Assembly (NCBI GenBank): GCA_050613775.1
Contig: JBODTK010000012.1
Coordinates: 372,001-436,000 of the forward strand
Source: Neocallimastix sp. 'constans'
Taxonomy: Eukaryota
Direction: 5' to 3'
Length of the DNA: 64,000 bases
Shown here: one piece after another, positions 5,001 through 39,097 of the stretch
Numbering within the stretch: the stretch's first letter is position 1
Layout: each line of letters opens with the position of its first letter
The notes under the pieces: model-generated
What the model saw: only the letters and a program-made list of their open reading frames with translations
What the model was told of the DNA's origin: nothing
The model's database searches: none
Position numbers and translations under genes: made by a program

Positions 5001-5148
5001 GTTGAAAATAATTTTAATTAAAATAAAAATTTTATAAATATATTTAAAATTTGTATAAGATAAATATTTATATATTGAATATATAAATAATTCTATTTTG
5101 TAAATTATACTTTTAAATTTACTTGTATAATATTTGTGGTATAACAAA

Positions 5149-8100: not shown

Positions 8101-8427
8101 AAACCAGCCTTCATGCGTCCACCATATGGATCTGGTAGAGGTAATCAAACTGTTATGAGTGCTCTTCAAGGTCTTGGCTATACTGCAGCTATCACATGGA
8201 ATGTTGATCCAATGGATTACAGTAATGGAGGAGATATTGATTATGCTGTTAGTGCGATTAAACAAACCATTGGTAATCCAATTATTACATTAAATCACTT
8301 AAAATATGAAGGATCATCTCTTGATGGTATTTTAGCCTTAGCTAAAGCTGAAATTGATACTTTATTAAACAGTGGATACACTTCAGTTACCATGGAGGAA
8401 TGTCTTGGAATGAGTGCCTATCAGTAA
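5149..8427 (+). CDS. Secreted multimodular enzyme: 3x GH11 endo-1,4-beta-xylanase plus C-terminal CE4 (NodB-type polysaccharide deacetylase / putative acetylxylan esterase)
   Basis: ATG at 5149 begins a signal peptide (MKSFKSINFIFSIIAASGLVSA). Three GH11 domains each carry YGWT..PLVEYYIVD and EAKVLGEAG (both catalytic Glu) and are separated by Q/A/P/E linkers. CE4 motifs are TYDDGP, HTFSH, MRPPYG, DPMDY and TLNH. Intronless. Confidence 0.95.
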   Translation: MKSFKSINFIFSIIAASGLVSAQSFCSSASHSGESVTNYSNTVSTIGNVGYELWADSGENSATFYSDGSFSCSFKNAGDYLCRAGLSFDSTQSHQQIGHMYADFKLVKQNIANVDYSFVGVYGWTRQPLVEYYIVDNWLSQYRPGEWVGDTNLGDHVIDGAEYTVYKNTRTGPSIDGDTTFTQYFSIRKEARDCGTIDISAHFDQWEKLGMKLGVMHEAKVLGEAGSNNGGTSGTADFPYAKVYIGNSQSQAPAQEPVQAPAPAQQAPAQEPVQAQEPVQAQAPAQEPVQAQEPVQAQAPAQEQAPAPAPVAASAGSDFCSSANHSGESVINYSNIVSTIGNVGYELWADSGENSATFYSDGSFSCSFKNAGDYLCRAGLSFDSTQSHQQIGHMYADFKLVKQNIANVDYSFVGVYGWTRQPLVEYYIVDNWLSQYRPGEWVGDTNLGDHVIDGAEYTVYKNTRTGPSIDGDTTFTQYFSIRKEARDCGTIDISAHFDQWEKLGMKLGVMHEAKVLGEAGSNNGGTSGTADFPYAKVYIGNSQSQAPAQEPVQAPAPAQQAPAQEPVQAQEPVQAQAPAQEPVQAQEPVQAQAPAQEQAPAPAPVAASAGSDFCSSANHSGESVTNYSNTVSTIGNVGYELWADSGENSATFYSDGSFSCSFKNAGDYLCRAGLSFDSTQSHQQIGHMYADFKLVKQNIANVDYSFVGVYGWTRQPLVEYYIVDNWLSQYRPGEWVGDTNLGDHVIDGAEYTVYKNTRTGPSIDGDTTFTQYFSIRKEARDCGTIDISAHFDQWEKLGMKLGVMHEAKVLGEAGSNNGGTSGTADFPYAKVYIGNSQAQAPAAAPAPAQEQAPAQEPVQAQQPAPAPATAQSQYPKGSGFQFYTQCVNPKNWAMTYDDGPTEFADAILDLLKEKGVKATFFVLGKFYMDSTDPEWARIIKRMDSEGHIVGTHTFSHQDLTQLSYDQIIDEMNKITEAVEKVIGKKPAFMRPPYGSGRGNQTVMSALQGLGYTAAITWNVDPMDYSNGGDIDYAVSAIKQTIGNPIITLNHLKYEGSSLDGILALAKAEIDTLLNSGYTSVTMEECLGMSAYQ
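5220..7654 (+). repeat. Intragenic tandem triplication, 882-bp period (GH11 + linker)
   Basis: The same sequence recurs at 882-bp offsets (shadow ORFs start at 5300, 6182 and 7064). Only a few substitutions separate the copies. Confidence 0.95.
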
Positions 8428-11345: not shown

Positions 11346-12221
11346 CTAAAAATAAATACATAAGAAAAATTATTTAATAAAGAATAAAAAATAAGTGAAA
11401 AATTATTAATTTATTTATTGCGTTTATTTTAAATGAAATGTTATTAAAGTTTTTAAAGAGAAGATTGATATTTAATTAAAGAAAATATTTATTTTTTTTT
11501 AAAATTAATTTATAATAAATAAAAAAAATATTTTCAATGATTTTATAATTTTTTTTCATTTAAATAAAAGTTGTATTTTCTTTTTGTTTGAAGTAAAAAT
11601 ATATATGAGAGCTTTTTTTTTTTTTTTTTTAATTTTTTATTTTTTATGCTATATATATATATTCTATTTAAATAAAAAATAAAGGTATTGAATAATTTTT
11701 TAAAATAATATAATATTATATTTATTATATTAATCTTAAATTATTACTATTATCTATTAAATATTATTCTTAACTAAATATTATATATTTATATATTATG
11801 AATAGTTTTAAAAATAATTGTATTAAGTTCTATTCACTATAATACTCATATACATGTATTTATTGATATTCATTAATAAAATTTTTTATTATTTTTTTTA
11901 TATATAATTTTCAATATTATAATTACATATATATATAGGTGAGATTTAAAACATGTTAATTAGGATTTTAAGTGATTAAGTTGAAGCAACGAATTAAATA
12001 TTTAATATTGTCAATTTTTTATTATAGGGAAAAAAGATACAGATTCGAATGATAATTTTCATCCACATGGAGTTATCTTCGATGAATGGGAAGAGTTAGA
12101 GGCCTTTTCGTCCTCGAATCTCATAACGTAGTTTTTTAATATTAATATAAAAAATAATTTCATGTATTTAAATTTCATGTATTTTTTAAAAAAAATATTA
12201 TTAAATAAAGTTTATTCCTAG

Positions 12222-14445: not shown

Positions 14446-15966
14446 TTAAGCTTTTCCGGCCATCTTGGCATCCATTTCTTCAAGATTGAGTCCCTTACAT
14501 TCAATTACATAGAACTGAGAGTAAATCCAGGCAAGAAGACAAGCAGCTGCAAAAAGAAGGAAAGTCTTAGTACTCCATGCTTTCATAAGAGCTGGTCCAA
14601 CAAATGCAATAATCCAATTATTAAGGAAGTTAGAGACTGTACCAACAGCACTACCCTTAACTCTGACACGAAGTGGGAAAACTTCAGCTTGATAAACCCA
14701 TGGAACTGGTCCCCAAGTCCAAGCAAAAGAAAAGACCATAAGGAAAATACTAGCAACTGCTAAATATTGCCATAACTTTCCTTTGTAGGTTTGAGTAGAG
14801 AAAGCCCAGGTAGAAATATGGAATACCATCATCATAAGTGATCCAATAACTAATAAAGTTTTACGTCCTAATTTTTCAATACCCCACATACCTGGGAAGG
14901 TTGAAATGAAATTGACAAAATTGTTAATAATTGGAAGAACAACAGTGGACATGAATTTAGTAAATCCAATTTCACCATAAATTTGAGATTGATAATACAT
15001 AATGACATTAATACCAGTCCATTGTTGGAAAAGTTGCATTAAGAAAGTAATGAAAGTACGACGACGAATAACAGGACTGAAAAGTTCACCGACAGAAGAA
15101 GAACCGGCAGCACGAGTAGCGGCAACATCTTCTTGAATAGCTTTAAGTTCTTCTTGAACAAGAGAATCAGAAGTAGAAGTAGCATTAAGTTTAGCTAAAA
15201 CTTCAGCAGCTTCTTCATCACGATCTTTAGAACATAACCATCTTGGAGATTTTGGAAGGAAACTCATAAGAATAGCAAGACCAAGACCTGGAACTACTTG
15301 GAATAAAAGTGCAAATCTCCATTCGAAATTAGGAACTTCTGCCCATTTATCTGATCTTTTCTTTCCTAATCCTTCTGGTTTAATATTAGTATAATACCAA
15401 ACGATAGAATTAATGATGGCTGCAACAATAATACCGAAAGTAGTCATAAGTTGGTAGCAAGATGAAAGAGTACCTCTGATCTTAGCTGGAGCAACTTCAG
15501 AAATGTATGTTGGACAAAGGACACCATTACATCCAATAGAAAGACCAGTGATAAGACGACCAATAGCAATCATAATCCAAGAACGAACAGATAAACCTTG
15601 AATGATAGCACCACAAGTGAAGATACAAGCACCGATCATGATGGTTCTTTGACGACCGAATCTTTCACCAAGATAAGTAGCCATGAGAGCACCACAAAGA
15701 GCACCGAGAACGAAACTTGAAGTGATAACACCTTCGAGGGTAGCTTTATTATCAGCTTCTTTTAAATCACGATACCATTTTTCTTGAGAATCATTAGTAA
15801 TTTCTTTACCATTTTCATCAAGGGCATCACCATTCCAACTATGGAACTTGAAGAAAATACGGAAAGCATCCATTACAAGGACAACATTCATGACACCACA
15901 TTCATAACCGAAAAGAAGACCACCTAACGAAGCGGTCACGGCCACTAAAAATTGAAAAGAATTCAT
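14446..15966 (-). CDS. MFS sugar porter (SP family) transporter, copy A
   Basis: 506 aa, about 12 TM helices. SP motifs: GGLLFGYE, ERFGRQR, YISEVAP..IRG, PKSPRWL, QQWTGIN, EKLGRK, WGPVPW, EVFPLRVR, IECKG. Confidence 0.95.
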   Translation of the reverse strand: MNSFQFLVAVTASLGGLLFGYECGVMNVVLVMDAFRIFFKFHSWNGDALDENGKEITNDSQEKWYRDLKEADNKATLEGVITSSFVLGALCGALMATYLGERFGRQRTIMIGACIFTCGAIIQGLSVRSWIMIAIGRLITGLSIGCNGVLCPTYISEVAPAKIRGTLSSCYQLMTTFGIIVAAIINSIVWYYTNIKPEGLGKKRSDKWAEVPNFEWRFALLFQVVPGLGLAILMSFLPKSPRWLCSKDRDEEAAEVLAKLNATSTSDSLVQEELKAIQEDVAATRAAGSSSVGELFSPVIRRRTFITFLMQLFQQWTGINVIMYYQSQIYGEIGFTKFMSTVVLPIINNFVNFISTFPGMWGIEKLGRKTLLVIGSLMMMVFHISTWAFSTQTYKGKLWQYLAVASIFLMVFSFAWTWGPVPWVYQAEVFPLRVRVKGSAVGTVSNFLNNWIIAFVGPALMKAWSTKTFLLFAAACLLAWIYSQFYVIECKGLNLEEMDAKMAGKA

Positions 15967-17396
15967 AATTTATTTTATTTACAAAACTATACTTATTATT
16001 TTTATCTTAAATTAAGTTTATAATTATTATATAATTATAATGAAGAAAAAAAAAATATAATTTAAAGAAAATTTCACTCTTTTATATTAAAATAGAATAT
16101 AATGTACTATTAATTAATTGTAAATTAATATAAAAAATGGAAAATTAAAATAATATAAAATAAAAACATTATTAAAGGGTTTTTCATTATTTAAATGCTA
16201 TAAATTGAAAGAAAATATTATGCTCTTAGTTCAGTACAATCAATTATTTTTAATTTAAAAACATATATATATATTTTTAAATTTAAATATTATTATTATA
16301 TATATTTAAAAAAACCTCCGTTGTGTTTAATTATTGTAATATTTTAAGTATAATTATAATATGCTAAGTAGTACTAATTTTATAGATTATTTTTAATATG
16401 CTTAATATATTATATTTAAAATAATCTCAAATATTAATATTCATAATATATATGGGGAAAATTTAATTCTTTAAATTTAATTACTAATTAATTATATATA
16501 TATTTTTTTAAATTATTGAATTTTATATAAAAATACATTGAAACTTATGACAATAAACAAGTAAAAAATGGAAATATAAATAATATTCATATTTAATAAC
16601 ATTTTTTATTTATCACAAATTATTAAATTTTAATGTTCATATCTTATATACTTTGTTTTTTTTTATATTAATTTCTATATTTAATAAAAATATTGAATAA
16701 ACTATAAAATGTACCTCTAATTTTTTATATTTTACATTTAAACTTTTTTAATAAAGGTTTTTTAATGAAATAAGATAAAACTTTTTTTCAAATAAAATAA
16801 AACTTTTTTTTCAAATAAAATAAAAATTATTTAGATATAAGTTCATACTAATAAAAAATTTTATGATTTATATATAAATTATATGAATTTATCTCTCTCT
16901 CTATATATATAAATATATTTGTATAGATAAAAATATAAAGTATTTCAAACATATAAAATATATTTATATATATTTTATTATATATTTAAAATATTGCTTT
17001 TAAAATTTATCTGTATATAAAGAATTAAAGAAATATAAAACATACATAAAGTTTAATTGAAGAACATTATTTATTCAAATTAACATTTTATATTAAATTA
17101 ATTGTTTTCTATCCAAAATTTAGCATTAATAATAATAGCAAATGATAAAAATAAATAATATTGATAACAAGAATGGTAATAAGTTTAATAAATAAAAAAT
17201 GCAAATTATTATATGGTTATTAATTATATTTATTTAATAATACTATTTTGAATAGTAATAATATTATTTAAAATTTATAGACTTAAAATATAATTTAAAA
17301 AAATAAATATTTATAAAATTAATATAAATACTTTTAATATTAAATTAATATATAAACTTTTTATTTGACGTTATTTATAATTTAAAAGTATAATTT

Positions 17397-17437
<41 letters not shown>

Positions 17438-18099
17438 TTTTGCTCTTTTTTTAATATTATTATGAAAATTTTAATATTGTACCTTTTTAATTATAATTAT
17501 TTAGTATTAATATAATAATAAATGTGTCATTTAAATATTTCATTTAGAATCATTGGATAATTTTAAAAAAAATATAATTAAAAAATTTAATTATAAATTT
17601 TTTTCATTTTTGACAATATTTGTAATTTTTATATTAGAATATAATATTATATATAAACTATTAAATAGAATTAAAGCATATTAAAAGTAATTATTATTAA
17701 AAAAGTTTATTATTTTAATATTAAATAAAAAAGATAAAACAAAATAAAATAAAAAATTCTAAACAAATTTTTAATTTCAAATGATAAAATAAATTAATAT
17801 TTAAAATTTATTATTATTATAATTATATTTTATAATATTAATTTTTATATTATAACATTTTTTTATAATTCAAAAATTCAACTTTAATTCATAATGTATT
17901 AAATAAAATAAACATATATAAAAAGTAATCTTTGGAGTGTTATTAATTTCCATATTATTGTAATAAAAACTAATAATTAATATTAATATTCATTATTTAT
18001 AATTTTTTTTAAAATTAATTGTTAATATGCTATTAATAAAATATTTAAAAAAAATTTTTTTTAAATATAAAATTATATAAAAAATTAAAAAAAAATATT

Positions 18100-18739
18100 A
18101 ATTTTGAAAATTTCCCATATATAAATGTTATATTAATGAATATTAATATTAGAATATATTTCTAATTCAGAAATTTTAATATAATTTATATATTTTATAA
18201 AAAATAAAATTTTAGCATATTAAAAGTAATCTTTTAAATACTATTATTTATATAAATATTTATATTTTTTAATATTAATAAAATTTTCCTTTGAAAAGTC
18301 TTATTATTTAAATATATATACACCATTTTATATAATATTAAATATAATAAAAACATATTAAAAGTAATCTTTTGGAGTATTTTTATATAGCATATTATAT
18401 TAATACTTAAAAATATTACATATCAAAATAATAAATATCCTTGAAAAAGGTTAAATATTAATATTTAATTCAAAAAACATAATTTATATACAGATTTAAT
18501 TATATATAAATATAATATAAATAAAAATTAATAATTAATATTAATACTTATAATTAAAATTTTAATTTAAAATAATTATTTATTTGTTATTATGATATAG
18601 AATATTAGAAAAATTTTTTAATATAAAAGATTGAAATTTTCTTTAAATTATTTTTTTTTTCTTCATTATAATTATATAATAATTATAGACTTAATTTAAG
18701 ATAAAACTAATAAGTATAGTTTTGTAAATAAAATAAATT
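18100..18739 (+). promoter_or_regulatory. Upstream module shared by transporter copies B, C and D (homologous blocks start near 18103, 21849 and 25733)
   Basis: The block TTTGAAAATTTCCCATATATAAATG..AATATTAGAATA.ATTTCTAATTCAGAAATTTTAAT occurs upstream of all three + strand copies. The ~100 bp next to the ATG is conserved in all four copies. Confidence 0.6.
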
Positions 18740-20260
18740 ATGAATTCTTTTCAGTTTTTAGTGGCCGTGACCGCTTCTTTAGGTGGTCTTCTTTTCGGTT
18801 ATGAATGTGGTGTCATGAATGTTGTCCTTGTAATGGATGCTTTCCGTATTTTCTTCTCGTTCCATAGTTGGAATGGTGATGCCCTTGATGAAAATGGTAA
18901 CGAAATTACTAATGATTCTCAAGAAAAATGGTATCGTAATTTAAAAGAAGCTGATAATAAAGCTACCCTTGAAGGTGTTATCACTTCAAGTTTCGTTCTC
19001 GGTGCTCTTTGTGGTGCTCTCATGGCTACTTATCTTGGTGAAAGATTCGGTCGTCAAAGAACCATCATGATCGGTGCTTGTATTTTCACTTGTGGTGCTA
19101 TCATTCAAGGTTTATCTGTTCGTTCTTGGATTATGATTGCTATTGGTCGTCTTATCACTGGTCTTTCTATTGGATGTAATGGTGTCCTTTGTCCAACATA
19201 CATTTCTGAAGTTGCTCCAGCTAAGATCAGAGGTACTCTTTCATCTTGCTACCAACTTATGACTACTTTCGGTATTATTGTTGCAGCCATCATTAATTCT
19301 ATCGTTTGGTATTATACTAATATTAAACCAGAAGGATTAGGAAAGAAAAGATCAGATAAATGGGCAGAAGTTCCTAATTTCGAATGGAGATTTGCACTTT
19401 TATTCCAAGTAGTTCCAGGTCTTGGTCTTGCTATTCTTATGAGTTTCCTTCCAAAATCTCCAAGATGGTTATGTTCTAAAGATCGTGATGAAGAAGCTGC
19501 TGAAGTTTTAGCTAAACTTAATGCTACCACTACTTCTGATTCTCTTGTCCAAGAAGAACTTAAAGCTATTCAAGAAGATGTTGCCGCTACTCGTGCTGCC
19601 GGTTCTTCTTCTGTTGGTGAACTTTTCAGTCCTGTTATTCGTCGTCGTACTTTCATTACTTTCTTAATGCAACTTTTCCAACAATGGACTGGTATTAATG
19701 TCATTATGTATTATCAATCTCAAATTTATGGTGAAATTGGATTTACTAAATTCATGTCCACTGTTGTTCTTCCAATTATTAACAACTTTGTCAATTTCAT
19801 TTCAACCTTCCCAGGTATGTGGGGTATTGAAAGATTAGGACGTAAAACTTTATTAGTTATTGGATCACTTATGATGATGGTATTCCATATTTCTACTTGG
19901 GCTTTCTCTACTCAAACCTACAAAGGAAAGTTATGGCAATATTTAGCAGTTGCTAGTATTTTCCTTATGGTCTTTTCTTTTGCTTGGACTTGGGGACCAG
20001 TTCCATGGGTTTATCAAGCTGAAGTTTTCCCACTTCGTGTCAGAGTTAAGGGTAGTGCAGTTGGTACAGTTTCTAACTTTCTTAACAATTGGATTATTGC
20101 ATTTGTTGGACCAGCTCTTATGAAAGCATGGAGTACTAAGACTTTCCTTCTTTTTGCAGCTGCTTGTCTTCTTGCCTGGATTTACTCTCAGTTCTATGTA
20201 ATTGAATGTAAGGGACTCAATCTTGAAGAAATGGATGCCAAGATGGCCGGAAAAGCTTAA
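18740..20260 (+). CDS. MFS sugar porter, copy B
   Basis: 506 aa; same motifs, only a few residues differ from copy A. Confidence 0.95.
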   Translation: MNSFQFLVAVTASLGGLLFGYECGVMNVVLVMDAFRIFFSFHSWNGDALDENGNEITNDSQEKWYRNLKEADNKATLEGVITSSFVLGALCGALMATYLGERFGRQRTIMIGACIFTCGAIIQGLSVRSWIMIAIGRLITGLSIGCNGVLCPTYISEVAPAKIRGTLSSCYQLMTTFGIIVAAIINSIVWYYTNIKPEGLGKKRSDKWAEVPNFEWRFALLFQVVPGLGLAILMSFLPKSPRWLCSKDRDEEAAEVLAKLNATTTSDSLVQEELKAIQEDVAATRAAGSSSVGELFSPVIRRRTFITFLMQLFQQWTGINVIMYYQSQIYGEIGFTKFMSTVVLPIINNFVNFISTFPGMWGIERLGRKTLLVIGSLMMMVFHISTWAFSTQTYKGKLWQYLAVASIFLMVFSFAWTWGPVPWVYQAEVFPLRVRVKGSAVGTVSNFLNNWIIAFVGPALMKAWSTKTFLLFAAACLLAWIYSQFYVIECKGLNLEEMDAKMAGKA

Positions 20261-22568
20261 ATTTAAAGAAAAGAATTCATAAATTTCAATGAAATTTTTA
20301 ATAAATAAATTTCATTAAAATAATTAATTCAAGAAATTAATTTAAAAATTTATATTAAAAAAAAATATATAAAATTAAATAAAAATAAAAAAATAAAATA
20401 TAAAATATAAAAATATATTAAAATGTATATATACATAATATAAGACAAAGCTAATCAAATATACAAAAAAACAAAATTGACTAAAAATTGAAAACTATTC
20501 ATTTTTTTAAAAAAACATGATAATAACCAATATATAATATTTTATAAAATTTTATATAGTGGTTATATCATAATATAGAATATAAACTTAACTTAAACTT
20601 AACATAAACTTAACATAAACTTAACTTAAATTAATAAATAATAAGCAATTATAAAAATAAATATATATATTCTTTTTTATCTTGTATATTTTGTGTTATT
20701 ATGATTTTTTATTTTTATTAATGTGTATAAAGTTATTTATATTTTATTTAAATATATAATTTTTTTTTTTGTTTATTTTTTAATCACATTTTCAATTTTT
20801 TTTTTTTTAATATTTTTAATAGATTGTTTTATATGTAAATAATTGCGATTATATGATAATTAATTTTTTGTATATATTATTAAACAAATAATATATAATA
20901 AAAAGATAGATTAATTGTAAGGAATATTTTTTATTAAGTATTAAAGATTATAATAATTATAAAAAAATTTTTTTTTATTATATAATTTAAAATTATATTG
21001 ATTTCCTATGTATTGGTAAAATTATTTAATATTATAAATATTAAATAATTTAAATTTTGAATAAATATTAAAATATTAATTATAAAAGGTATGATTCAGT
21101 ATTTTATTTTTATTTTTAATAATATTATATTTATTTTAGTCATATATTTTTTAAATTGTTAATTTCTAATTATTTTTACTATTATTTTATTAATTATAAA
21201 TCATCAAGATAATAAATAACTATATAAATTATTTAATAATTAATATGTAAACTTAAATATATATAAAATTTCAATTATTTTGATACAAATATTTTTTTTT
21301 TGAAATATATATTTTAATTAAATTGGATAAATTTTTATAAAAATTTTTTTTTAATATAATGGATATATAATGGATATAAAAAAAAAATATAAAACTCAAA
21401 TAATAATAAATATTAAAATTCATAAAGTACCAAAAACTAATATATTATATTAAAAAAAATATAATTATTAAAAAACAATAAATATTATAATAAAAAGTAA
21501 TTTTATTAATATTTTTATTGTAAAAAAATATATATATTTAACTTTTACTAAAAAGTGTTTATATATAATTTTAGTAAATTTTTCCATATATTAATGATAT
21601 ATTAATGAGTAATAATATTATATTTATAATTCAGAAATTTTAATATAATATTATATTATATATATATAAAATAAAATTTATTTAATAAGATTAAATGAAA
21701 TAGAAACATTAAAAGTAATCATTTTGAGTATTCCTACTTAGCATATTATATTAATACTTATGCATATTAAATTATTTCAAAAGAAATCATTGAAAAAAGT
21801 TAAATTAATAAAAAATTATATAAAAAATCAAAAAGAAAAAAAAATTATTTTGAAAATTTCCCATATATAAATGATATATTAATGAATATTAATATTAGAA
21901 TATATTTCTAATTCAGAAATTTTAATATAATATTATAAATTTTATAAAAATTAAAGTTTAACATATTAAAAGTAATTTTTGAAATATCATTATTTATATA
22001 AATATTTATAATATTTAATATTAATAAAATTTTCTTTGAAATGAAATATTTAAATATAAAATATTAAATATATATAAAAATTTAATATTATTTTTATTTT
22101 TAAATAAGTAAATTTTATTTTATAATATTTTGTAAAAATGTTTATATTATTTAATTAAAGAATTTTAATTTTAATTTAAATTTTAAATATAATAGAAACA
22201 TATTAAAATTATTTTTTTTTCTATTGAGTATTTTTACTTAGTATATTATATTAATATATAAAAGTATTACTTATTATGATAATTAACTTTTGAAAAAGAT
22301 TAAATATTAGTATTAAATTCAAAAAAATATAATTATACACCATATAAATAAAATTAATAATTAATATTAATACTCACAATTAAAATTTTAATTTATAATA
22401 ATTATTTATTTGTTATTATGATATAAAATATTAGAAAAATTTTTTTAATATAAAAGTACGAAATTTTCTTTAAATTATATTTTTTTTTTCTTCATTATAA
22501 TTATATAATAATTATAGACTTAATTTAAGATAAAACTAATAAATATAGTTTTGTAAATAAAATAAATT

Positions 22569-24089
22569 ATGAATTTTTTTCAATTTTTAGTGGCCGTGAC
22601 CGCTTCGTTAGGTGGTCTTCTTTTCGGTTATGAATGTGGTGTCATGAATGTTGTCCTTGTAATGGATGCTTTCCGTATTTTCTTCAAGTTCCATAGTTGG
22701 AATGGTGATGCCCTTGATGAAAATGGTAACGAAATTACTAATGATTCTCAAGAAAAATGGTATCGTGATTTAAAAGAAGCTGATAATAAAGCTACCCTTG
22801 AAGGTGTTATCACTTCAAGTTTCGTTCTCGGTGCTCTTTGTGGTGCTCTCATGGCTACTTATCTTGGTGAAAGATTCGGTCGTCAAAGAACCATCATGAT
22901 CGGTGCTTGTATCTTCACTTGTGGTGCTATCATTCAAGGTTTATCTGTTCGTTCTTGGATTATGATTGCTATTGGTCGTCTTATCACTGGTCTTTCTATT
23001 GGATGTAATGGTGTCCTTTGTCCAACATACATTTCTGAAGTTGCTCCAGCTAAGATCAGAGGTACTCTTTCATCTTGCTACCAACTTATGACTACTTTCG
23101 GTATTATTGTTGCAGCCATCATTAATTCTATCGTTTGGTATTATACTAATATTAAACCAGAAGGATTAGGAAAGAAAAGATCAGATAAATGGGCAGAAGT
23201 TCCTAATTTCGAATGGAGATTTGCACTTTTATTCCAAGTAGTTCCAGGTCTTGGTCTTGCTATTCTTATGAGTTTCCTTCCAAAATCTCCAAGATGGTTA
23301 TGTTCTAAAGATCGTGATGAAGAAGCTGCTGAAGTTTTAGCTAAACTTAATGCTACTTCTACTTCTGATTCTCTTGTTCAAGAAGAACTTAAAGCTATTC
23401 AAGAAGATGTTGCCGCTACTCGTGCTGCCGGTTCTTCTTCTGTTGGTGAACTTTTCAGTCCTGTTATTCGTCGTCGTACTTTCATTACTTTCTTAATGCA
23501 ACTTTTCCAACAATGGACTGGTATTAATGCCATTATGTATTATCAATCTCAAATTTATGGTGAAATTGGATTTACTAAATTCATGTCCACTGTTGTTCTT
23601 CCAATTATTAACAACTTTGTCAATTTCATTTCAACCTTCCCAGGTATGTGGGGTATTGAAAGATTAGGACGTAAAACTTTATTAGTTATTGGATCACTTA
23701 TGATGATGGTATTCCATATTTCTACTTGGGCTTTCTCTACTCAAACCTACAAAGGAAAGTTATGGCAATATTTAGCAGTTGCTAGTATTTTCCTTATGGT
23801 CTTTTCTTTCGCTTGGACTTGGGGACCAGTTCCATGGGTTTATCAAGCTGAAGTTTTCCCACTTCGTGTCAGAGTTAAGGGTAGTGCAGTTGGTACAGTC
23901 TCTAACTTCCTTAATAATTGGATTATTGCATTTGTTGGACCAGCTCTTATGAAAGCATGGAGTACTAAGACTTTCCTTCTTTTTGCAGCTGCTTGTCTTC
24001 TTGCCTGGATTTACTCTCAGTTCTATGTTATTGAATGTAAGGGACTCAATCTTGAAGAAATGGATGCCAAGATGGCCGGAAAAGCTTAA
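22569..24089 (+). CDS. MFS sugar porter, copy C
   Basis: 506 aa; same motifs, near-identical to the other copies. Confidence 0.95.
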   Translation: MNFFQFLVAVTASLGGLLFGYECGVMNVVLVMDAFRIFFKFHSWNGDALDENGNEITNDSQEKWYRDLKEADNKATLEGVITSSFVLGALCGALMATYLGERFGRQRTIMIGACIFTCGAIIQGLSVRSWIMIAIGRLITGLSIGCNGVLCPTYISEVAPAKIRGTLSSCYQLMTTFGIIVAAIINSIVWYYTNIKPEGLGKKRSDKWAEVPNFEWRFALLFQVVPGLGLAILMSFLPKSPRWLCSKDRDEEAAEVLAKLNATSTSDSLVQEELKAIQEDVAATRAAGSSSVGELFSPVIRRRTFITFLMQLFQQWTGINAIMYYQSQIYGEIGFTKFMSTVVLPIINNFVNFISTFPGMWGIERLGRKTLLVIGSLMMMVFHISTWAFSTQTYKGKLWQYLAVASIFLMVFSFAWTWGPVPWVYQAEVFPLRVRVKGSAVGTVSNFLNNWIIAFVGPALMKAWSTKTFLLFAAACLLAWIYSQFYVIECKGLNLEEMDAKMAGKA

Positions 24090-24244
24090 ATTTAAAGAAA
24101 AGAATTCATAAATTTCAATGAAGTTTTAAAAAATAAATTTCATTTAAATAATTAAAAAAAATAATTAAAAAATTAAAAAATAAAATAAATATAAAATTAA
24201 ATATAAATTAAAAAATAAAAATATAAAAAATAAAAAAATATTAA

Positions 24245-24275
<31 letters not shown>

Positions 24276-26471
24276 ATATATTTATATATATATATATATA
24301 AAACAAAGCTAATCAAATATACAAAAAAACAAAATAATCGACTAAAAATTGAAAACTGTTCATTTTTTTAAAAAAAAAAAAAACATGATAATAACCAATA
24401 TATAATATTTTATAAAATTTTATATAGTGGTTATATCAAAAATATAGAAGATAAGCTTAACTTAAACTTAACTTAAATTAATAAATAATAAACAATTGTA
24501 AAAATAAATGTATTTATAATTTTTTTTCTTGTATATTTTGTATTATTATGATTTTTTATCTTTATTAATGTGTATTAGAGTTATTTTTTTTATTAATTTT
24601 TTTTGCTTTTTATTTTTTTTATTTATTTATTTTTTTTTCTATATTTTCAATTGATTGCTTTATTTGTGAATAATAAGATTATATTATAATTAAATTTTTT
24701 TAAATTAAACTTTTAACTAATAGATTAATAGAAAGTAATATTTTTATTAATTATAAAAGATTATAATAATTATAAAGAATTATTAATTTTTATTATATAT
24801 TTTAAAATTATATTGAATTTCCTATGTATTGGTAAAATTACTTAATATCAAAACTACAGAATAATTAAATTTTTAATAAATATCATAATACTAATGATAA
24901 AATGTATAATTCAAAATTTTATTTGTATTTCTAGTAATATTATTATTATATTTATTTTAATTGCATTTATTTTAATTGTATTTATTTTACTTATATTTAT
25001 TTCTTGAACTGTTAATTTCTAATTATTATTATTATAATTATTCTTATAATTATTCTTATTATTATTCTTATTATTATTCTTATTATTATTATTTTTCTTA
25101 TAATTTTTCTTATAATTGTTATTATAATTTTTTTTATTCATTATAAATCATCTTAAAACTTTTTTTATTATATAATCATTAATATATTAATTTAAATATA
25201 TATAGAATTTCAATTATTTCGATACAAATAATTTTTTTGAAATATTTTTTTTTAATTAAAATTTAATATAATTGGATAAATTTTTATAAAAATTTATTTA
25301 TAATATAATAGATATAAAAAAAAATATAAAACTCAAATAATAATAAATATTTAAATTCATAAAGTACCAAAAATTAATATATTATATTAAAAAAAATATA
25401 ATTATTAAAAAATAATATAACTATTAAAAAAATAATAAATATTTCAAAAAAAAAATATATTACTTTTTCTAAAAAGTGTTTATATATAATTTTAATAAAA
25501 TTTTCCATATATATTAATTTAAAATACAGAATTTTAACATTATAATATATATTATAAAATAAAATTTATTTAATAATATTAAATGAAATAAAAACATAAT
25601 AAAAGTAATCTTTTTGAGTATTTTTAATTAGCATATTATATTAATACATAAAAATATTAAATTTTTATGGCGTTGAAAATGGTTAAATTAATAAAAATTG
25701 ATACAATAAATTAAAAAAAAAAAAAAATTAGTTTTGAAAATTTCCCATATATAAATGATATATTAATGAATATTAATATTAGAATACATTTCTAATTCAG
25801 AAATTTTAATATAACTATTATATTTTATAAAAAATAAAATTTTAGCATATTAAAAGTAATCTTTTAAATACTATTATTTATATAAATATTTATATTTTTT
25901 AATATTAATAAAATTTTCCTTTGAAAAGTCTTATTATTTAAATATATACACCATTTTAATATTATTTTAATTAAACAAAAATCTTATTTTATAACATGTT
26001 GTATTAGTATTTTTTTTTTTTTTTTTTTTATTATTTAATTAAAATATTTCAATTTTAATTTATATAATATTAAATATAATAAAAACATATTAAAAGTAAT
26101 CTTTTGGAATATTTTTACTTAGCATATTAAATTAATACTTAAAAATATTACATATCAAGATAATAAATATCCTTGAAAAAGGTTAAATATTAATATTCAA
26201 TTCAAAAAACATAATTTATATACAGAATTAATTATATATATATAATATAAATAAAAATCAATAATTAATATTAATACTTATAATTAAAATTTTAATTTAA
26301 AATAATTATTTATTTGTTATTTTGATATAGAATATTATAAAATTTTTTTTAATATAAAAGTACGAAATTTTCTTTAAATTATTTTTTTTTTCTTCATTAT
26401 AATTATATAATAATTATAGACTTAATTTAAGATAAAACTAATAAGTATAGTTTTGTAAATAAAATAAAATT

Positions 26472-27992
26472 ATGAATTCTTTTCAATTTTTAGTGGCCGT
26501 GACCGCTTCGTTAGGTGGTCTTCTTTTCGGTTATGAATGTGGTGTCATGAATGTTGTCCTTGTAATGGATGCTTTCCGTATTTTCTTCAAGTTCCATAGT
26601 TGGAATGGTGATGCCCTTGATGAAAATGGTAACGAAATTACTAATGATTCTCAAGAAAAATGGTATCGTAATTTAAAAGAAGCTGATAATAAAGCTACCC
26701 TTGAAGGTGTTATCACTTCAAGTTTCGTTCTCGGTGCTCTTTGTGGTGCTCTCATGGCTACTTATCTTGGTGAAAGATTCGGTCGTCAAAGAACCATCAT
26801 GATCGGTGCTTGTATTTTCACTTGTGGTGCTATCATTCAAGGTTTATCTGTTCGTTCTTGGATTATGATTGCTATTGGTCGTCTTATCACTGGTCTTTCT
26901 ATTGGATGTAATGGTGTCCTTTGTCCAACATACATTTCTGAAGTTGCTCCAGCTAAGATCAGAGGTACTCTTTCATCTTGCTACCAACTTATGACTACTT
27001 TCGGTATTATTGTTGCTGCCATCATTAATTCTATCGTTTGGTATTATACTAATATTAAACCAGAAGGATTAGGAAAGAAAAGATCAGATAAATGGGCAGA
27101 AGTTCCTAATTTCGAATGGAGATTTGCACTTTTATTCCAAGTAGTTCCAGGTCTTGGTCTTGCTATTCTTATGAGTTTCCTTCCAAAATCTCCAAGATGG
27201 TTATGTTCTAAAGATCGTGATGAAGAAGCTGCTGAAGTTTTAGCTAAACTTAATGCTACCACTACTTCTGATTCTCTTGTTCAAGAAGAACTTAAAGCTA
27301 TTCAAGAAGATGTTGCCGCTACTCGTGCTGCCGGTTCTTCTTCTGTTGGTGAACTTTTCAGTCCTATTATTCGTCGTCGTACTTTCATTACTTTCTTAAT
27401 GCAACTTTTCCAACAATGGACTGGTATTAATGTCATTATGTATTATCAATCTCAAATTTATGGTGAAATTGGTTTTACTAAATTCATGTCCACTGTTGTT
27501 CTTCCAATTATTAACAACTTTGTCAATTTCATTTCAACCTTCCCAGGTATGTGGGGTATTGAAAAATTAGGACGTAAAACTTTATTAGTTATTGGATCAC
27601 TTATGATGATGGTATTCCATATTTCTACTTGGGCTTTCTCTACTCAAACCTACAAAGGAAAGTTATGGCAATATTTAGCAGTTGCTAGTATTTTCCTTAT
27701 GGTCTTCTCTTTCGCTTGGACTTGGGGACCAGTTCCATGGGTTTATCAAGCTGAAGTTTTCCCACTTCGTGTCAGAGTTAAGGGTAGTGCAGTTGGTACA
27801 GTTTCTAACTTTCTTAACAATTGGATTATTGCATTTGTTGGACCAGCTCTTATGAAAGCATGGAGTACTAAGACTTTCCTTCTTTTTGCAGCTGCTTGTC
27901 TTCTTGCCTGGATTTACTCTCAGTTCTATGTAATTGAATGTAAAGGACTCAATCTTGAAGAAATGGATGCCAAGATGGCCGGAAAAGCTTAA
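26472..27992 (+). CDS. MFS sugar porter, copy D
   Basis: 506 aa; same motifs, near-identical to the other copies. Confidence 0.95.
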   Translation: MNSFQFLVAVTASLGGLLFGYECGVMNVVLVMDAFRIFFKFHSWNGDALDENGNEITNDSQEKWYRNLKEADNKATLEGVITSSFVLGALCGALMATYLGERFGRQRTIMIGACIFTCGAIIQGLSVRSWIMIAIGRLITGLSIGCNGVLCPTYISEVAPAKIRGTLSSCYQLMTTFGIIVAAIINSIVWYYTNIKPEGLGKKRSDKWAEVPNFEWRFALLFQVVPGLGLAILMSFLPKSPRWLCSKDRDEEAAEVLAKLNATTTSDSLVQEELKAIQEDVAATRAAGSSSVGELFSPIIRRRTFITFLMQLFQQWTGINVIMYYQSQIYGEIGFTKFMSTVVLPIINNFVNFISTFPGMWGIEKLGRKTLLVIGSLMMMVFHISTWAFSTQTYKGKLWQYLAVASIFLMVFSFAWTWGPVPWVYQAEVFPLRVRVKGSAVGTVSNFLNNWIIAFVGPALMKAWSTKTFLLFAAACLLAWIYSQFYVIECKGLNLEEMDAKMAGKA

Positions 27993-29746
27993 ATTTAATG
28001 AAAAGAATTCATAAATTTCAATGAAATTTTTAATAAATAAATTTCATTAAAATAATTAATAAAAAAAAAAATTAATTAAAAAATTAAAAAATAAAATAAA
28101 TATAAAATTAAATATAAAATAAAAAATAAAAATATAGAAAATAAAAAAATATTAAATATATATATATTATAAAACAAAACTAAAGAAATATTCAAAAGTA
28201 AAAATAGACTAAAAATTGAAAACTGTTCATTTTTTTTTTAAAAAAAAAAAAAAAAAATATGATAATAACCAATATATAATATTTTATAAAATTTTATGTA
28301 GTGGTTATATCAAAAAAATAGAAAATAAAACTTAACTTAAATTAATAAATAATAAGCAAATCAAAAAAACTAAATATATATATTATATTTTTATAATTTT
28401 TTATTTTTTTTAAATGCGTATTTTTTGTCTTTTTCTTTATTATTTTTTATTATTAAAGTTATAATTATTTTTTCATTTTTTTTTATGAAAATTTTTTCTT
28501 AAATTTTTTTTTTTTTTTTTTTTTTTAATATCATTTCATAAATAAAAAATAATTTTTAATGCTATTAAAATTTATTTAATATAAAATTAAAATTTTCAAA
28601 TACCCTCATTAAATATTTTTTTTTTATGAAATATTTTTAACTAAATTTATTATAATTGGTAAATGTTTGATCATAATAAATTTTTATTAATATTTATATC
28701 TATAAAACTATACAGAAGCTAAAATCTTTAGTATTAGAGAAGGGATTAGCATACAGAAGACTAAAAGCGATAGGAACAATAGGCTCAGATTAATAATACC
28801 TTGTTCTATCATAATTTATACTGTTAAATGTACGAATACTTGAAGTAATCTACCAACTTATTCTTTTATCAATTAAATGTTTTGTAATCATAGAAATAAC
28901 CTTCAAATAATCCATATTATTTTTATTATAATTAACTCTTAGGAAGAAGTAGTTTTCCAAATTAATTAGTATTTTTTAACATTTCTATAATAAATTCGTT
29001 ACAATTTGAAGAAATAATTATTACATAAAAAAAAAAAAAAACATGATAAATAAAACATTATATTACAATACATGAATGAATTTTATAAATGAAGAAATAG
29101 TTAATACATAAAAAAAAAAAAAGAAAGGAAGAACAATGATAATCATTTCTTAAACAAAAAAAAAAAAAAATTTTTTTTTTTTTTATTTCTTTTAAAATTA
29201 ATTTTTTAAATAATAAACAATTAAAAGACATTCATTATGAAATGTTTAGATTTTTTTTTTTTTTTTTTACCATCACCCTCATCACTATTAGAATTATGAT
29301 AGTCTTCCTTCAATTTAGAAGGTGATACGACCCTGACGATTTCTTCACTATATTCTAAAATAATTTATATATAAATGTAGAAGCAGATATTAACACTTTT
29401 TGTTATTTTATTTTTTTTATTTTTCATCTTTTTATTTTATTTTTTTTTATCATTATTAATTATTATTTTTTTATTACATTTTTTTTTTTTTTAATTACAT
29501 TTTTTTCATATTTAAAAAAAAAATATAAAATAAATAAAAAAAAGAAAAAAAAAGAAATAATAAAATAATAAGAATATTAATAAAGAAAAATAGAAAAAAA
29601 GAGTAAAAAAAAAAAAAAAAAAAAAAAAAATATTTAAATAAATAAAAAATATATATATAAATATTGAAAAAAAAAAAAAATTTTTTTTTCTTAATAAATA
29701 AAAAAGATAAAAAACTAAAAACTATAATATAAATATATATAATAAT

Positions 29747-33271: not shown

Positions 33272-34404
33272 GATTTAATTATGTTTTATTATTATTATGG
33301 ACCAAAATAAATATAATAGTGAATATTATATAATAAAAAAAGAAAAAAAAAAAAAAAAAAAAGGAAATAAAGTATAATAATAAATAATAATGAAATTTAT
33401 TTACACTATAGGTATATTTTATAAAGGTATTATATTAATAGTTTACAATAAATTATTGTAATAATATAATTTTTTTTTTTTTAAAAAAAATAATAAATAA
33501 ATAAATTTTCAAAATTTTATAATAAAATATAAAATAGATTAAAAATTGGTATATAAATTAAATAATAAAATTTGATTGAAATGGTATATTTAAAATTCAA
33601 ATCTTAAAATAAATAATATTATATTTTTTTTTATAATGTATAAAAATAAATAAATAAATAAATAAAAATTATTTGTATATATATATTTAAATAACAATTT
33701 AGAAAAAATTATATATATATGTATATATTTTATAAAAAAGAATTATGAATCTAATCAATTCAATCTCCTTTTTTTTTTTCTAAAAAAAAAAAAAATACTT
33801 TTAAATATATATCTACGTATTTTGTTTTTTTTAAAAAAAATAATATATTCACCAAGATTATATTTATTTCTTTTATTTTATTTTATTTTATTTTATTTTT
33901 TTTTTTTTTTTTTTTATCTTTTCTTTGTTTTATTCTATTCTATATATAGTTCAACCTTATAATAAAATAAAATTATAAAAAGACAATCCTTCAAAAGAAA
34001 AAAAAAAAAACAAAATTGTGTTGAAACTTTTTAGAAAAAACTTCTGTCTTTTATATAAAAAAAATTTTTTTTTTCATATATTAAGCAATATATTAGACAT
34101 ATATAATATATAATTTTAGAAATTACAAATGATAATAATAATAATAATAATAAAATAATTATTAGTAAATATCTGTTAATATATTATGAAATTAATAAGC
34201 ATTAATAAAAAGAGTAATACAAATATAATAATTATTATTTAATTATTCCATTTCCAACAATAATAAATTTTTAATAATAAAAAATATTATAATCATTAAT
34301 AACTTGTTTAACTATTAAATAATAATTAATAATTATTAAATGATCATGTATTAAATTCTTAAATAAGGATTAAATATTATGATTAATAAAATATTTAAAA
34401 AAAC

Positions 34405-34417
34405 AAAAAAAAAAAAA
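34405..34417 (-). terminator. Oligo-dT RNA polymerase III terminator (T13)
   Basis: A13 on the + strand directly abuts the 3' strand of the terminal helix of the ncRNA. Confidence 0.6.
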
Positions 34418-34784
34418 CATAGACTTGCACATATGGGTACCCATCTCCCATATGGCCATACAGTTATTAATTAACTGTAAGGTGATGAGTTATTGGCATA
34501 CTGTATCAGCTTCGCCGCTCTCAATCGTCGTTACACACTGCCCGGAGATGCATTCCTAACGTTCCTACATATATCTCTAATGACCACGAGCATCAGAACG
34601 GAACCATTAACTCCTCCCTAGTGGGTGTAATCATTGGCGATTGGAAATTTTACAATCATCAAGGTCTATGCTTCAATTCAAAGCGTAGTATCAGGGTTGG
34701 GTGAAATAATCATCTGAGGGAAAGCCTTATGGACATCACGTGTGGTCTCATGATATCCCAGGATAGAAACCTCATCCGATTATT
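34418..34784 (-). ncRNA. Unassigned ~365-nt structured ncRNA co-transcribed downstream of the tRNA-like leader
   Basis: GC-rich island in otherwise very AT-rich DNA, with no plausible ORF, many nested helices and no internal T-run of 4 or more before the terminator. It ends exactly at a T13 run. Confidence 0.65.
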
Positions 34785-34859
34785 TGGTGCCATGCCGAGG
34801 ATTCGAACCCCGCCCTCTACAGTGACCTGTATCGTCCTAACCGACTGGACCAACATGGC
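34785..34859 (-). tRNA. tRNA-like element (aberrant anticodon arm, encoded 3' CCA); probably a Pol III promoter/leader rather than a translating tRNA
   Basis: The minus strand reads GCCATGT TG GTCC AGTCGGTTA GGAC GA TACAG GTCA CTGTA GAGGG CGGGG TTCGAAT CCTCG GCATGGC A CCA. It has a 7-bp acceptor stem, a 4-bp D stem, a T arm with TTCGA, and A and B boxes. The anticodon stem closes only a 4-nt loop. Confidence 0.85.
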
Positions 34860-35730
34860 TAAAATATTTAAAATAAAAGCTTATTTTTTTTTTATTTCTA
34901 TCATTTTTTATTATCATATCTGAATTAATTAAATTACATATATAATGGATTTATTAACAATAATATATTGTATTAATATATTTATTTATTACAATATATA
35001 ATATAATTTGTGTTATATAAAAATGTTTATAGTTTTTTATTTATTATTTTTTTTAAAAGTTGGTAAAAATGTATAATATATAATTTTATTTAATATACAT
35101 ATAATGCAATACATTTAAATATATAGTAAATAGTATCCATCTTTACATATATTTATTTATATTCAATAATACTATATAATATATTATAACATATTATAAT
35201 ATATATGTGTATATATTGTATTATATATTAGAATATAATATTATCCTTAGAATTATCTTTTCAAAGTCGAAAGAATAATTTATTTGTTTTTAAAACTACA
35301 TATATTATAATGTATTATTAATATACTATAATTATATGTCCAATAGAATAAGCCTATATATAAAAAAAATTTGAAAAGTTTCAATCATAAATTAAAATTT
35401 TAATAAATAAATGTTATAATATAAATATATTATAAATATATAATTCTATTAAATTCCAATAATAAAGAAAAAAGTATATTTTTTTTTTAAATAAGAAGAA
35501 AAAAGAGAGGAGAAGAAACATTTAGAAAATAAAATTTTTTAAAATTTAGGCAAAGCAACCATAAAATAATATAGGATAAGCCATAAAACTAGCCAAACCA
35601 ATGAAATAAAATTTTCTGATAGGTTCTAAATGCATAATAACAAATATTTAATATATTAACTAAGATTGAATATATATATATAAAATAAAAATAAAATTAA
35701 ATTTAAAATAAACTTAAATAAGAGACTTTG

Positions 35731-35921
35731 GTTAATTGGTACAATATCTATAGCTATTATTTTTTTCTGATAATAATATAAAGAAAGATAAAGAAAATTT
35801 TATAAAATAAAAAAAGGTTTCATATAGTTAATTGGTACAATATCTATGGCTATTGTTTTTTTCTGATAATAATATAAAGAATGACAAAGAAAATTTTATA
35901 AAAAAAAAAAAGTTTCATATA
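35731..35921. repeat. Two-copy tandem duplication, ~96-bp period
   Basis: GTTAATTGGTACAATATCTAT(A/G)GCTATT...CTGATAATAATATAAAGAA occurs at 35731 and 35827. Confidence 0.85.
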
Positions 35922-37989: not shown

Positions 37990-39097
37990 GACAGTATTAA
38001 TATTACTACATGTATTAAGAATTAAAAGAAATTTATTAGTATATATTTATATTAATGAATTAAAATGTTCTGATATTGTATTTATATATTACATTAAATG
38101 AAATATGTTACTAGACAAAAAAAAAAAAATAATAATAATAATGTTTAAACTAATAACAAATTTATTAAGTATCATAATATATTTATGCTAATAATATAAA
38201 ATTAACTCAGTAAGGTTAGGAATCTTAAAAAGCGGTCTCTTGAATATATCCTCTTATAGGTTAAGCATTTCTCGGTGGTATTGAAGTTTCTAACAAATAT
38301 TAGTTGGAATATAAAGATAAATTTAACCCTAATCTCTAATACCTTTATTGGAAAAAATCATAAGAATAATGATATTGTAGGATCGACCAAAAGTGGTTAG
38401 GTATGTTTAATCGAGTTAGTAATAGATAAGACTTTAATTTAGTACAACGAAATGGTCGTCCTAATTTTCTTTTATATTATATTTCATTATTGTATATAAT
38501 TCACTTTTTGTTCCTTACATTTGAAATATTAATACATCTATATTTATAAAAAAATATTCCAATATAATATTTTATTTCTAATTAATTTATATGATAATTT
38601 TTTTTAATAATGAAAAAAAAAAAAAAAAAAAAACTTCTATGATATAAAAATTTATTTTAAAAAAGATAATAATATTTTACATATATTAATGTATTTTTCT
38701 TCAATAACTTCTGTAATAATGTAGTTTTTAAATATATAAATAATAAAAATATCTAAAAGAAGGAAGAAATTTTAAATTTAGTTTTTTTTTTTTTTTTTTT
38801 TTGTTCATATTAAAAAAGATTTTATTTCTTTTAAAATTATAAATAAAATATAAAATATAAAATATAAAATATATATATATATTTATAATAAAAAAATATA
38901 AAAAATGGATGAATATTTTGTAGATTTAAATAAATATTAATAATTTCTTGTTAGATAATTAAAAAAAAAAAAAAAAAAAAAAAAAATCCTCTATTAAAAA
39001 ATTTGGTTATATAAAAATATTAAAATATATAAAAAAAAAGAAAAAAGAAAAAATTACTATACTCTTATGTTAATTAAATTAATTAAATAAATAATTT

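What the first reader, a model, noticed from the sequence alone, without database searches (positions are those of the whole stretch)
34405..34859. tRNA-like leader fused to an unassigned ~365-nt structured RNA: candidate novel dicistronic Pol III ncRNA gene
Seen: on the - strand a cloverleaf with A and B boxes (34859-34785) runs with no spacer into a GC-rich, ORF-less stretch that stops at T13. Helices visible by eye: AAATAATC/GATTATTT (34785-34778 with 34711-34704) enclosing TGAGG/CCTCA, or alternatively a GGTTTC-TATCC/GGATA-GAGACC hairpin; a closing helix CATAGAC(C)TTG/CAAGTCTATG (34670-34660 with 34427-34418); TGATGA/TCATCA; CAATCG..TTACAC/GTGTAA..CGATTG; GAGATATAT/ATGCATCTC; and two perfect 8-bp hairpins, TACAGTTA/TAACTGTA (34479-34459) and CATATGGG/CCCATATG (34454-34430). 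Established: tRNA or tRNA-like leaders drive and release downstream RNAs (A/B-box leaders of yeast RPR1 and SNR52, plant tRNA-snoR43, Yarrowia tRNA-5S). I do not find the hallmark motifs of U1, U2, U5, U6, 5S, U3, SRP helix 8, or RNase P/MRP P4 (GAAAGUC). Inference: this is a functional but unrecognised or highly diverged ncRNA that uses a domesticated pseudo-tRNA as promoter and processing signal.
Basis: partly seen in the sequence, partly recalled or inferred. Interest (0 to 1): 0.9.

Follow-up and report, generated by a model that had tools for sequence, protein, structure and literature searches.

The report
T-tailed tRNA-SINE of gut fungi
This 442-base stretch, a broken tRNA joined to a folded RNA body and a run of T, sits between two copies of a 14-base repeat and turns up at other, unrelated sites in gut-fungus DNA, so it is most likely a young, transcribed jumping element (a SINE) rather than a new single-copy RNA gene.

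Summary
In detail: a pseudo-tRNA (34859-34785, A and B boxes, shortened anticodon loop) runs into a structured, ORF-less body ending at T13. Rfam finds only the tRNA. The single-copy dicistronic gene reading is not favoured. The unit lies between two exact copies of a 14-base repeat (null 0.2-2%). A 99.5%-identical full copy has unrelated flanks (L011). An 81%-identical, 5'-truncated relative is inserted antisense in a LINE 3' end, duplicating 13 bases that a second copy of that LINE holds once (L015). Another relative is decayed (L022). Contigs from two metatranscriptomes and two probable RNA runs carry head and body joined, with no mismatches and uncovered flanks. Best reading (0.7): a young, T-tailed, tRNA-derived SINE, probably Pol III-transcribed and copied by an APE-RT LINE of anaerobic gut fungi. 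Against it: no sequence shared with the LINE tested, copy number unknown, L011 without a target duplication, and a homogeneous RNA. A functional Pol III RNA that sheds retrocopies stays open (0.22). Fold conservation between the two subfamilies was not significant. Telomerase RNA and known snRNAs are unlikely. I found no such SINE in print for this phylum.

The parts
34860..34873 (-). Upstream copy of the 14-base direct repeat TTTTAAATATTTTA (likely target-site duplication); ends at the base before tRNA G1
   Evidence: this 14-mer occurs only once more on either strand of the window
34785..34859 (-). tRNA-derived head with encoded CCA (34787-34785); anticodon arm damaged (5-bp stem around a 4-nt loop GTCA); parent tRNA not identified
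   Evidence: one search found no informative full-length match among phage records
34841..34852 (-). A box (TGGTCCAGTCGG)
   Evidence: sequence; promoter role inferred
34799..34809 (-). B box (GGTTCGAATCC)
   Evidence: sequence; promoter role inferred
34704..34785 (-). 82-nt predicted rod hairpin; the relative in L015 begins inside it (5' truncation near element base 98)
34671..34703 (-). Predicted single-stranded linker; 12-mer TGATACTACGCT (34693-34682) is invariant in L015; the CCCAACCC stretch is not conserved
34418..34670 (-). 253-nt predicted multi-branch domain closed by CATAGACCTTG/CAAGTCTATG, with two 3' hairpins; about 80% identical to L015 and L022
34401..34417 (-). T-rich tail T13-G-T3 (likely Pol III terminator and priming tail)
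34387..34400 (-). Downstream copy of the 14-base direct repeat
12036..12155 (+). 3' end of an APE-RT LINE (31 aa, 97-100% identical to cluster members); holds the empty target site (12075-12087) of the L015 insertion; candidate partner family
28710..29009 (-). Decayed 5' ORF fragment of the same LINE family

Best explanation
This is most likely a recently inserted, full-length copy of a tRNA-derived SINE with a T tail, which Pol III would transcribe from the A and B boxes and a LINE reverse transcriptase would copy into new sites. Shown in sequence: head, boxes, no internal T4, T tail, flanking 14-base repeat, copies at unrelated sites, a 5'-truncated relative with a duplicated target, and LINE pieces in the same window. 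Inferred: Pol III makes a roughly 445-nt RNA that ends in oligo-U. A LINE protein with APE endonuclease and RT domains nicks AT-rich DNA. The U tail anneals to the A-rich 3' end of the nick (in the window that strand ends in AAAA) and primes reverse transcription. A second nick 13-14 bases away makes the duplication, and early stops give headless copies such as L015 and L022. The window type (A) is young; the L015/L022 type (B, about 80% identical) is an older or sister subfamily. The P0003 LINE family is only a candidate partner.
For: Exact 14-base repeat flush with G1 and the tail. In 20,000 random pairings of AT-rich flanks with T-run flanks, 1.2% reach 14 (0.2% without near-homopolymers). 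With the upstream flank fixed, 0 of 169 T-run flanks exceed 10; with the downstream flank fixed, 56 of 3000 reach 13. L011 differs at 2 of 442 bases, yet its flanks do not align with the window's and its downstream gene differs. L015 is 81% identical over element bases 97-440, headless and T-tailed. It sits antisense in a LINE 3' end between ATCATCGATGAAT and ATCATCAATGAAT, a site the window's LINE copy holds once. L022 is a decayed copy with internal deletions. Low-depth, 85-90%-alike contigs with differing loose ends are listed for 3 of 4 runs. Many APE-RT LINE relatives exist; the cluster includes a Neocallimastix protein. T-tailed tRNA SINEs are known in plants (PMC3747384, passages).
Against: Copy number is unknown: no genome, one copy in 64 kb, and only 4 true hits among 23 loci from one exact-pattern scan. 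L011 has no target duplication. The main contig in all 4 runs has no mismatch to the window, as a single gene would give. No similarity of the body to LINE proteins (139 proteins, best E 0.013), to the LINE contig L024 or to the LINE ends (12 comparisons, one gappy P 0.02). The LINE itself is not shown to be T-tailed: two copies continue past the T run into a shared short A-rich end. L013's 3' flank is joined through T29 and may be an assembly chimera. The different 5' flank in X3 and X4 could be an allele rather than another site.
Confidence: 0.7

Rival explanations
1. A functional, abundant Pol III RNA led by a pseudo-tRNA (in the manner of 7SL or rodent BC1, both recalled) is encoded by one source gene, and LINE enzymes occasionally retrocopy it. 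The window holds a fresh retrocopy; L011 or the X3/X4 locus would be a source gene, and type B the orthologue from another genus.
For: 20 of 24 listed runs hold half or more of the words, 6 of them labelled RNA. Main contigs are mismatch-free, with summed depth 155-2446 and uncovered flanks; X13 stops exactly at 34859 and X19 at 34854 (a weak hint only). L011 lacks a duplication. Blocks of 12-15 invariant bases and the closing helix persist in type B. A kink-turn-like motif lies at the same place in A and L015 (not significant).
Against: Pair retention between A and B was not clearly above a shuffled-substitution null (P 0.05-0.31), with no excess of double changes (0-1 seen, 0.4-1.2 expected). 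Near-identical copies have unrelated flanks. An active SINE is also transcribed and structured. Contigs cannot show the level or the ends of an RNA.
Confidence: 0.22
2. A highly diverged known RNA (telomerase RNA, RNase P/MRP, SRP, U3, U4 or another snoRNA) released from a tRNA leader.
For: tRNA-led dicistronic Pol III genes exist in fungi (PMC2566860, passages). The layout of stem, single-stranded linker and closed domain resembles telomerase RNA (recalled), and TGATGA follows the closing helix as a box C would.
Against: No hit to these families up to E 10 in the window or L015, or up to E 1 in five loci. The template-like CCCAACCC changes in L011 and L015. The only CTGA in the 3' half (near 34508) is not conserved. 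There is no U4-6 run for an Sm site.
Confidence: 0.05
3. A solo LTR of a tRNA-bearing TRIM (Helenus type), or another LTR-derived remnant.
For: Helenus LTRs carry A and B boxes and occur in fungi (PMC10886601, passages).
Against: Duplications here are 13-14 bases, against 5 bases for fungal Helenus. The tRNA is at the very 5' end, there is a T tail and 5' truncation, and the ends are not TG...CA.
Confidence: 0.02

Closest known systems
T-tailed tRNA SINEs of plants: p-SINE1-3, Au, ZmSINE1/2 (PMC3747384, passages)
   Same: tRNA head, unrelated body and (T)n tail; for p-SINE and Au the partner LINE is likewise unidentified and is proposed to recognise poly(U).
   Different: Fungal host; no sequence relation tested; unusually intact cloverleaf with CCA.
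Fungal tRNA SINEs: MgSINE (472 bp, about 100 copies), Foxy, SINE2-1_BG, AfuSINE2 (PMC5063351 and PMC3747384, passages)
   Same: Similar length, A and B boxes, duplications of 4-14 bases; some are transcribed.
   Different: Those named are in Dikarya. MgSINE and SINE2-1_BG have known LINE partners, whereas no shared tail was found here. AfuSINE transcripts were reported as very low, whereas this RNA is readily assembled in many libraries.
Bipartite RTE/Vingi-derived SINEs such as Bov-tA (PMC5786205, abstract, introduction, methods)
   Same: tRNA head plus a structured body that could come from LINE untranslated regions.
   Different: No similarity to the one LINE 5' region and 3' end available; other LINE families were tested only at protein level.
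Yarrowia tRNA-Trp-RUF70 and tRNA-5S dicistrons (PMC2566860, passages)
   Same: A tRNA leader directly 5' of an unassigned structured RNA, one T-track terminator, dispersed copies.
   Different: There the leader is a functional tRNA, the partner is about 70 nt and is released, with compensatory changes. Here the tRNA is damaged, the body is 365 nt, release and covariation are not shown, and copies bear retroposition marks.

Membership tests
SINE2 (tRNA-derived SINE) | 5' tRNA-derived head with A and B boxes | tested here: met
SINE2 (tRNA-derived SINE) | Short (100-600 bp), non-coding | tested here: met
   442 bases; no sense-strand ORF of 60 aa; no LINE protein match
SINE2 (tRNA-derived SINE) | Simple-sequence 3' tail | tested here: met
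   T13GT3 in the window, T11GT4 in L011, T-rich in L015
SINE2 (tRNA-derived SINE) | Variable-length target-site duplications | tested here: met
   14 bases in the window, 13 (12 of 13 alike) in L015 with the empty site known; none in L011; none seen by eye in L022; L013 lacks its 5' end
SINE2 (tRNA-derived SINE) | Dispersed copies, some 5'-truncated or decayed | tested here: met
   L011, L015, L022; they come from different assemblies, not one genome
SINE2 (tRNA-derived SINE) | Many copies within one genome | not testable with these tools
   no genome held; one copy in the 64-kb window
SINE2 (tRNA-derived SINE) | Partner LINE (shared 3' end or relaxed tail recognition) | tested here: inconclusive
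   APE-RT LINE present; no shared sequence
SINE2 (tRNA-derived SINE) | Transcribed by Pol III | tested here: inconclusive
   present in RNA libraries as contigs; polymerase, strand and ends not shown
Dicistronic tRNA-ncRNA gene (RUF70 type) | Downstream RNA released from the leader | tested here: inconclusive
   contigs span the junction in 4 of 4 runs; contigs cannot exclude cleavage
Dicistronic tRNA-ncRNA gene (RUF70 type) | Compensatory changes in the body | tested here: inconclusive
   2 of 95 predicted pairs; not above null; only two lineages
Telomerase RNA | Conserved single-stranded template | tested here: not met
   candidate stretch differs in L011 and L015
RNase P/MRP, SRP, U3, spliceosomal snRNAs | Match to the family covariance model | tested here: not met
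Helenus TRIM | Paired LTRs or solo LTR with 5-bp duplication | tested here: not met
   13-14-base duplications, T tail; PMC10886601 passages

The most novel reading that the evidence does not exclude
Anaerobic gut fungi make an abundant, uncleaved 445-nt pseudo-tRNA-headed RNA with a job of its own, conserved across genera and only secondarily retrocopied through its oligo-U end. Its invariant single-stranded 12-mer would act as an antisense guide (by recall it is complementary to the branch-point-pairing region of U2 snRNA; untested, and in L015 it also has a perfect partner inside the molecule), and its kink-turn-like motif would bind Snu13. It would be a new Pol III RNA class in an early-diverging fungal phylum.
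Probability: 0.15. Interest if true: 0.78.

Novelty: new member of a known kind. Interest (0 to 1): 0.38.

Why it matters
SINEs are sparsely described in fungi, and my searches found none in print for Neocallimastigomycota. A young, well-transcribed T-tailed family would be a fungal case of the unexplained poly(U)-ended retroposition known from plant p-SINE and Au elements. It comes with candidate LINE enzymes in the same genomes, which makes the priming mechanism testable. Its insertions could serve as strain markers in biotechnologically used gut fungi. If the rival holds, it is a new abundant Pol III RNA.

Tried and rejected
Rfam: nothing but tRNA. Telomerase template: rejected, not conserved. 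The apparent different head of L015: I first read it as a second 5' module; it is the antisense 3' end of a LINE. A T-tailed LINE: first suspected, withdrawn because two copies share sequence after the T run. Body derived from a LINE ORF, 5' region or 3' end: no support. Structure conservation test: not significant. Hammerhead, HDV-like and twister cores: looked for by eye from recalled consensus, none convincing. Parent tRNA: not identified; the GTC in the loop suggests Asp, by recall only. Pattern scans of viral contigs and prokaryote genomes found nothing; 19 of 23 metagenome loci were chance matches. The LINE was not in viral contigs. Records behind the loci are not held. The L015 RT fragment had no Pfam or PDB match but matched an RT protein. 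No DNA run was laid on the element, so copy number in the source organism and a DNA control for the contig ends remain open. Uncovered flanks in RNA runs are not proof of silence. Earlier-findings look-ups by place and sequence were empty.

Full report
Observation. The minus strand from 34859 carries a cloverleaf with A box (34852-34841), B box (34809-34799) and an encoded CCA. ARAGORN cannot assign an anticodon, and the Rfam tRNA model scores 38 bits. The body follows with no spacer and stops at T13. Predicted folding gives an 82-nt rod, a 33-nt single strand and a 253-nt closed domain, with z -1.4 (whole) and -2.2 (body) against shuffles. No Rfam family other than tRNA matches the window element or its relatives. 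The host is inferred to be a neocallimastigomycete: 18% GC, and a LINE end in the window 100% identical over 31 aa to a member of a cluster that includes a Neocallimastix protein.

Transcription. Of 24 runs listed, 20 from 17 studies hold half or more of the words, and 6 are on record as RNA. I laid 4 of the 24: two labelled metatranscriptomes (X13, X19) and two guessed RNA runs (X3, X4). In each, one contig with no mismatch covers head and body together. X13 (449 nt) stops at 34859 and X19 (462 nt) at 34854, while X3 and X4 run 7 bases further and then leave the window's flank. The window's own flanks have no long cover. Contigs cannot show strand, ends or level, and no DNA run was laid, so a discrete 445-nt RNA is a hint and not a finding. 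Three of the four runs also list short, low-depth contigs 85-90% alike to 34555-34705.

Relatives. One exact-pattern scan of metagenome contigs gave 23 loci; 4 are real and 19 are chance. L011 is a full copy with 2 differences in 442 bases; its flanks do not align with the window's and its downstream gene is different. L013 is identical from base 23 but joined through T29 to a convergent ORF, possibly a chimera. L015 (81% over bases 97-440) and L022 (81% over bases 200-427, with deletions) form a second type, 88% alike to each other.

Retroposition marks. In the window the 14-mer TTTTAAATATTTTA ends at the base before G1 and recurs right after T13GT3. It occurs only once more in the window on either strand, and three nulls give 0 of 169, 0.2-1.2% and 56 of 3000. 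In L015 the relative lacks its first 97 bases, ends in a T-rich tail and lies antisense inside the last codons of a LINE. An RT match and tblastn with the 1361-aa APE-RT protein P0003 show this. The 13-mer on both sides of the insert is present once in the window's copy of that LINE end (12075-12087), so this duplication is checked against an empty site. A second, inverted piece in L015 shares the same junction, so the LINE end carrying the insert was later copied again or assembled twice. L011 shows no duplication.

Mechanism. Shown: head, boxes, absence of internal T4, tail, duplications, truncation, dispersal across assemblies, LINE presence. Inferred from established SINE biology (PMC5786205, abstract and introduction; PMC5063351, passages): Pol III transcription to an oligo-U end, target-primed reverse transcription by a LINE protein, and priming of the U tail on an A-rich nick end. 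Plant p-SINE and Au elements end in (T)n, and a poly(U)-recognising partner was proposed but not identified (PMC3747384, passages). Here the partner is also unproven. The body matched none of 139 LINE-related proteins, nor the LINE contig L024, nor the LINE ends, and this LINE's own end seems to finish in a short A-rich stretch after its T run.

Results against the SINE reading. Copy number could not be measured. The expressed sequence is homogeneous in 4 of 4 runs. Type B could be the orthologue from other genera. Invariant blocks and the closing helix persist between A and B. But a test that maps each type's confident pairs onto the other found retention at P 0.05-0.31 and no excess of double changes, so selection on structure is not shown either way. 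I give 0.7 to the SINE, 0.22 to a functional RNA with retrocopies and 0.05 to a diverged known RNA.

Comparison and novelty. It works like T-tailed plant SINEs and fungal MgSINE, and meets five of eight SINE2 features; one could not be tested and two are inconclusive. It differs from Yarrowia tRNA-RUF70, where a working tRNA releases a 70-nt RNA (PMC2566860, passages), and from Helenus TRIMs with 5-bp duplications (PMC10886601, passages). Ten searches of the held library listed no SINE or such RNA for this phylum; most were seen as listings only. PMC6416283 (passages) added nothing. Repbase, Dfam and subscription journals were not searched, and no supplements were read. An earlier scan note (e1-8067693) reports a 437-base tRNA-headed SINE-like copy in another gut-fungus-like genome. 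It did not match by sequence look-up, so it may be another family, and it is not independent support.

Noticed in passing
L024:79-127: The 5' region of the APE-RT LINE has a canonical-looking kink-turn hairpin (CACCCC-GAT-GA...GA-GGGGTG; crude scan P 0.002; fold). A weaker version lies at the same place in types A (34637) and B.
   Followed up: partly
window 12036-12155 (+) and L015: This single-ORF LINE has almost no 3' UTR: stop codon, T run, about 11 bases, then a short A run. Clade not determined.
   Followed up: partly
L024 (contig CADBSQ010000037.1): A gut-fungus LINE (98% to P0003) is binned in a bacterial MAG of the prokaryote genome collection: likely contamination.
   Followed up: no
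window 5131-8427 (+): Intronless 1098-aa ORF with three near-identical repeats that look like GH11 xylanase domains and a C-terminal deacetylase-like domain (labels recalled, not scanned).
   Followed up: no
window 14446-27992: Four near-identical intronless sugar transporter genes, one inverted (one scanned as Sugar_tr).
   Followed up: no
window 38200-38520: A 300-base patch of raised GC (23%) downstream of KRR1 with no Rfam hit and no LINE protein match; possibly a decayed mobile-element fragment.
   Followed up: partly
window 35731-35921: Two tandem copies of a 96-base unit, 93% alike, 900 bases upstream of the element.
   Followed up: no
L022:355-1205: The decayed type B copy lies just upstream of an intronless isochorismatase-family ORF on the same strand, possibly in its 5' leader.
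   Followed up: no
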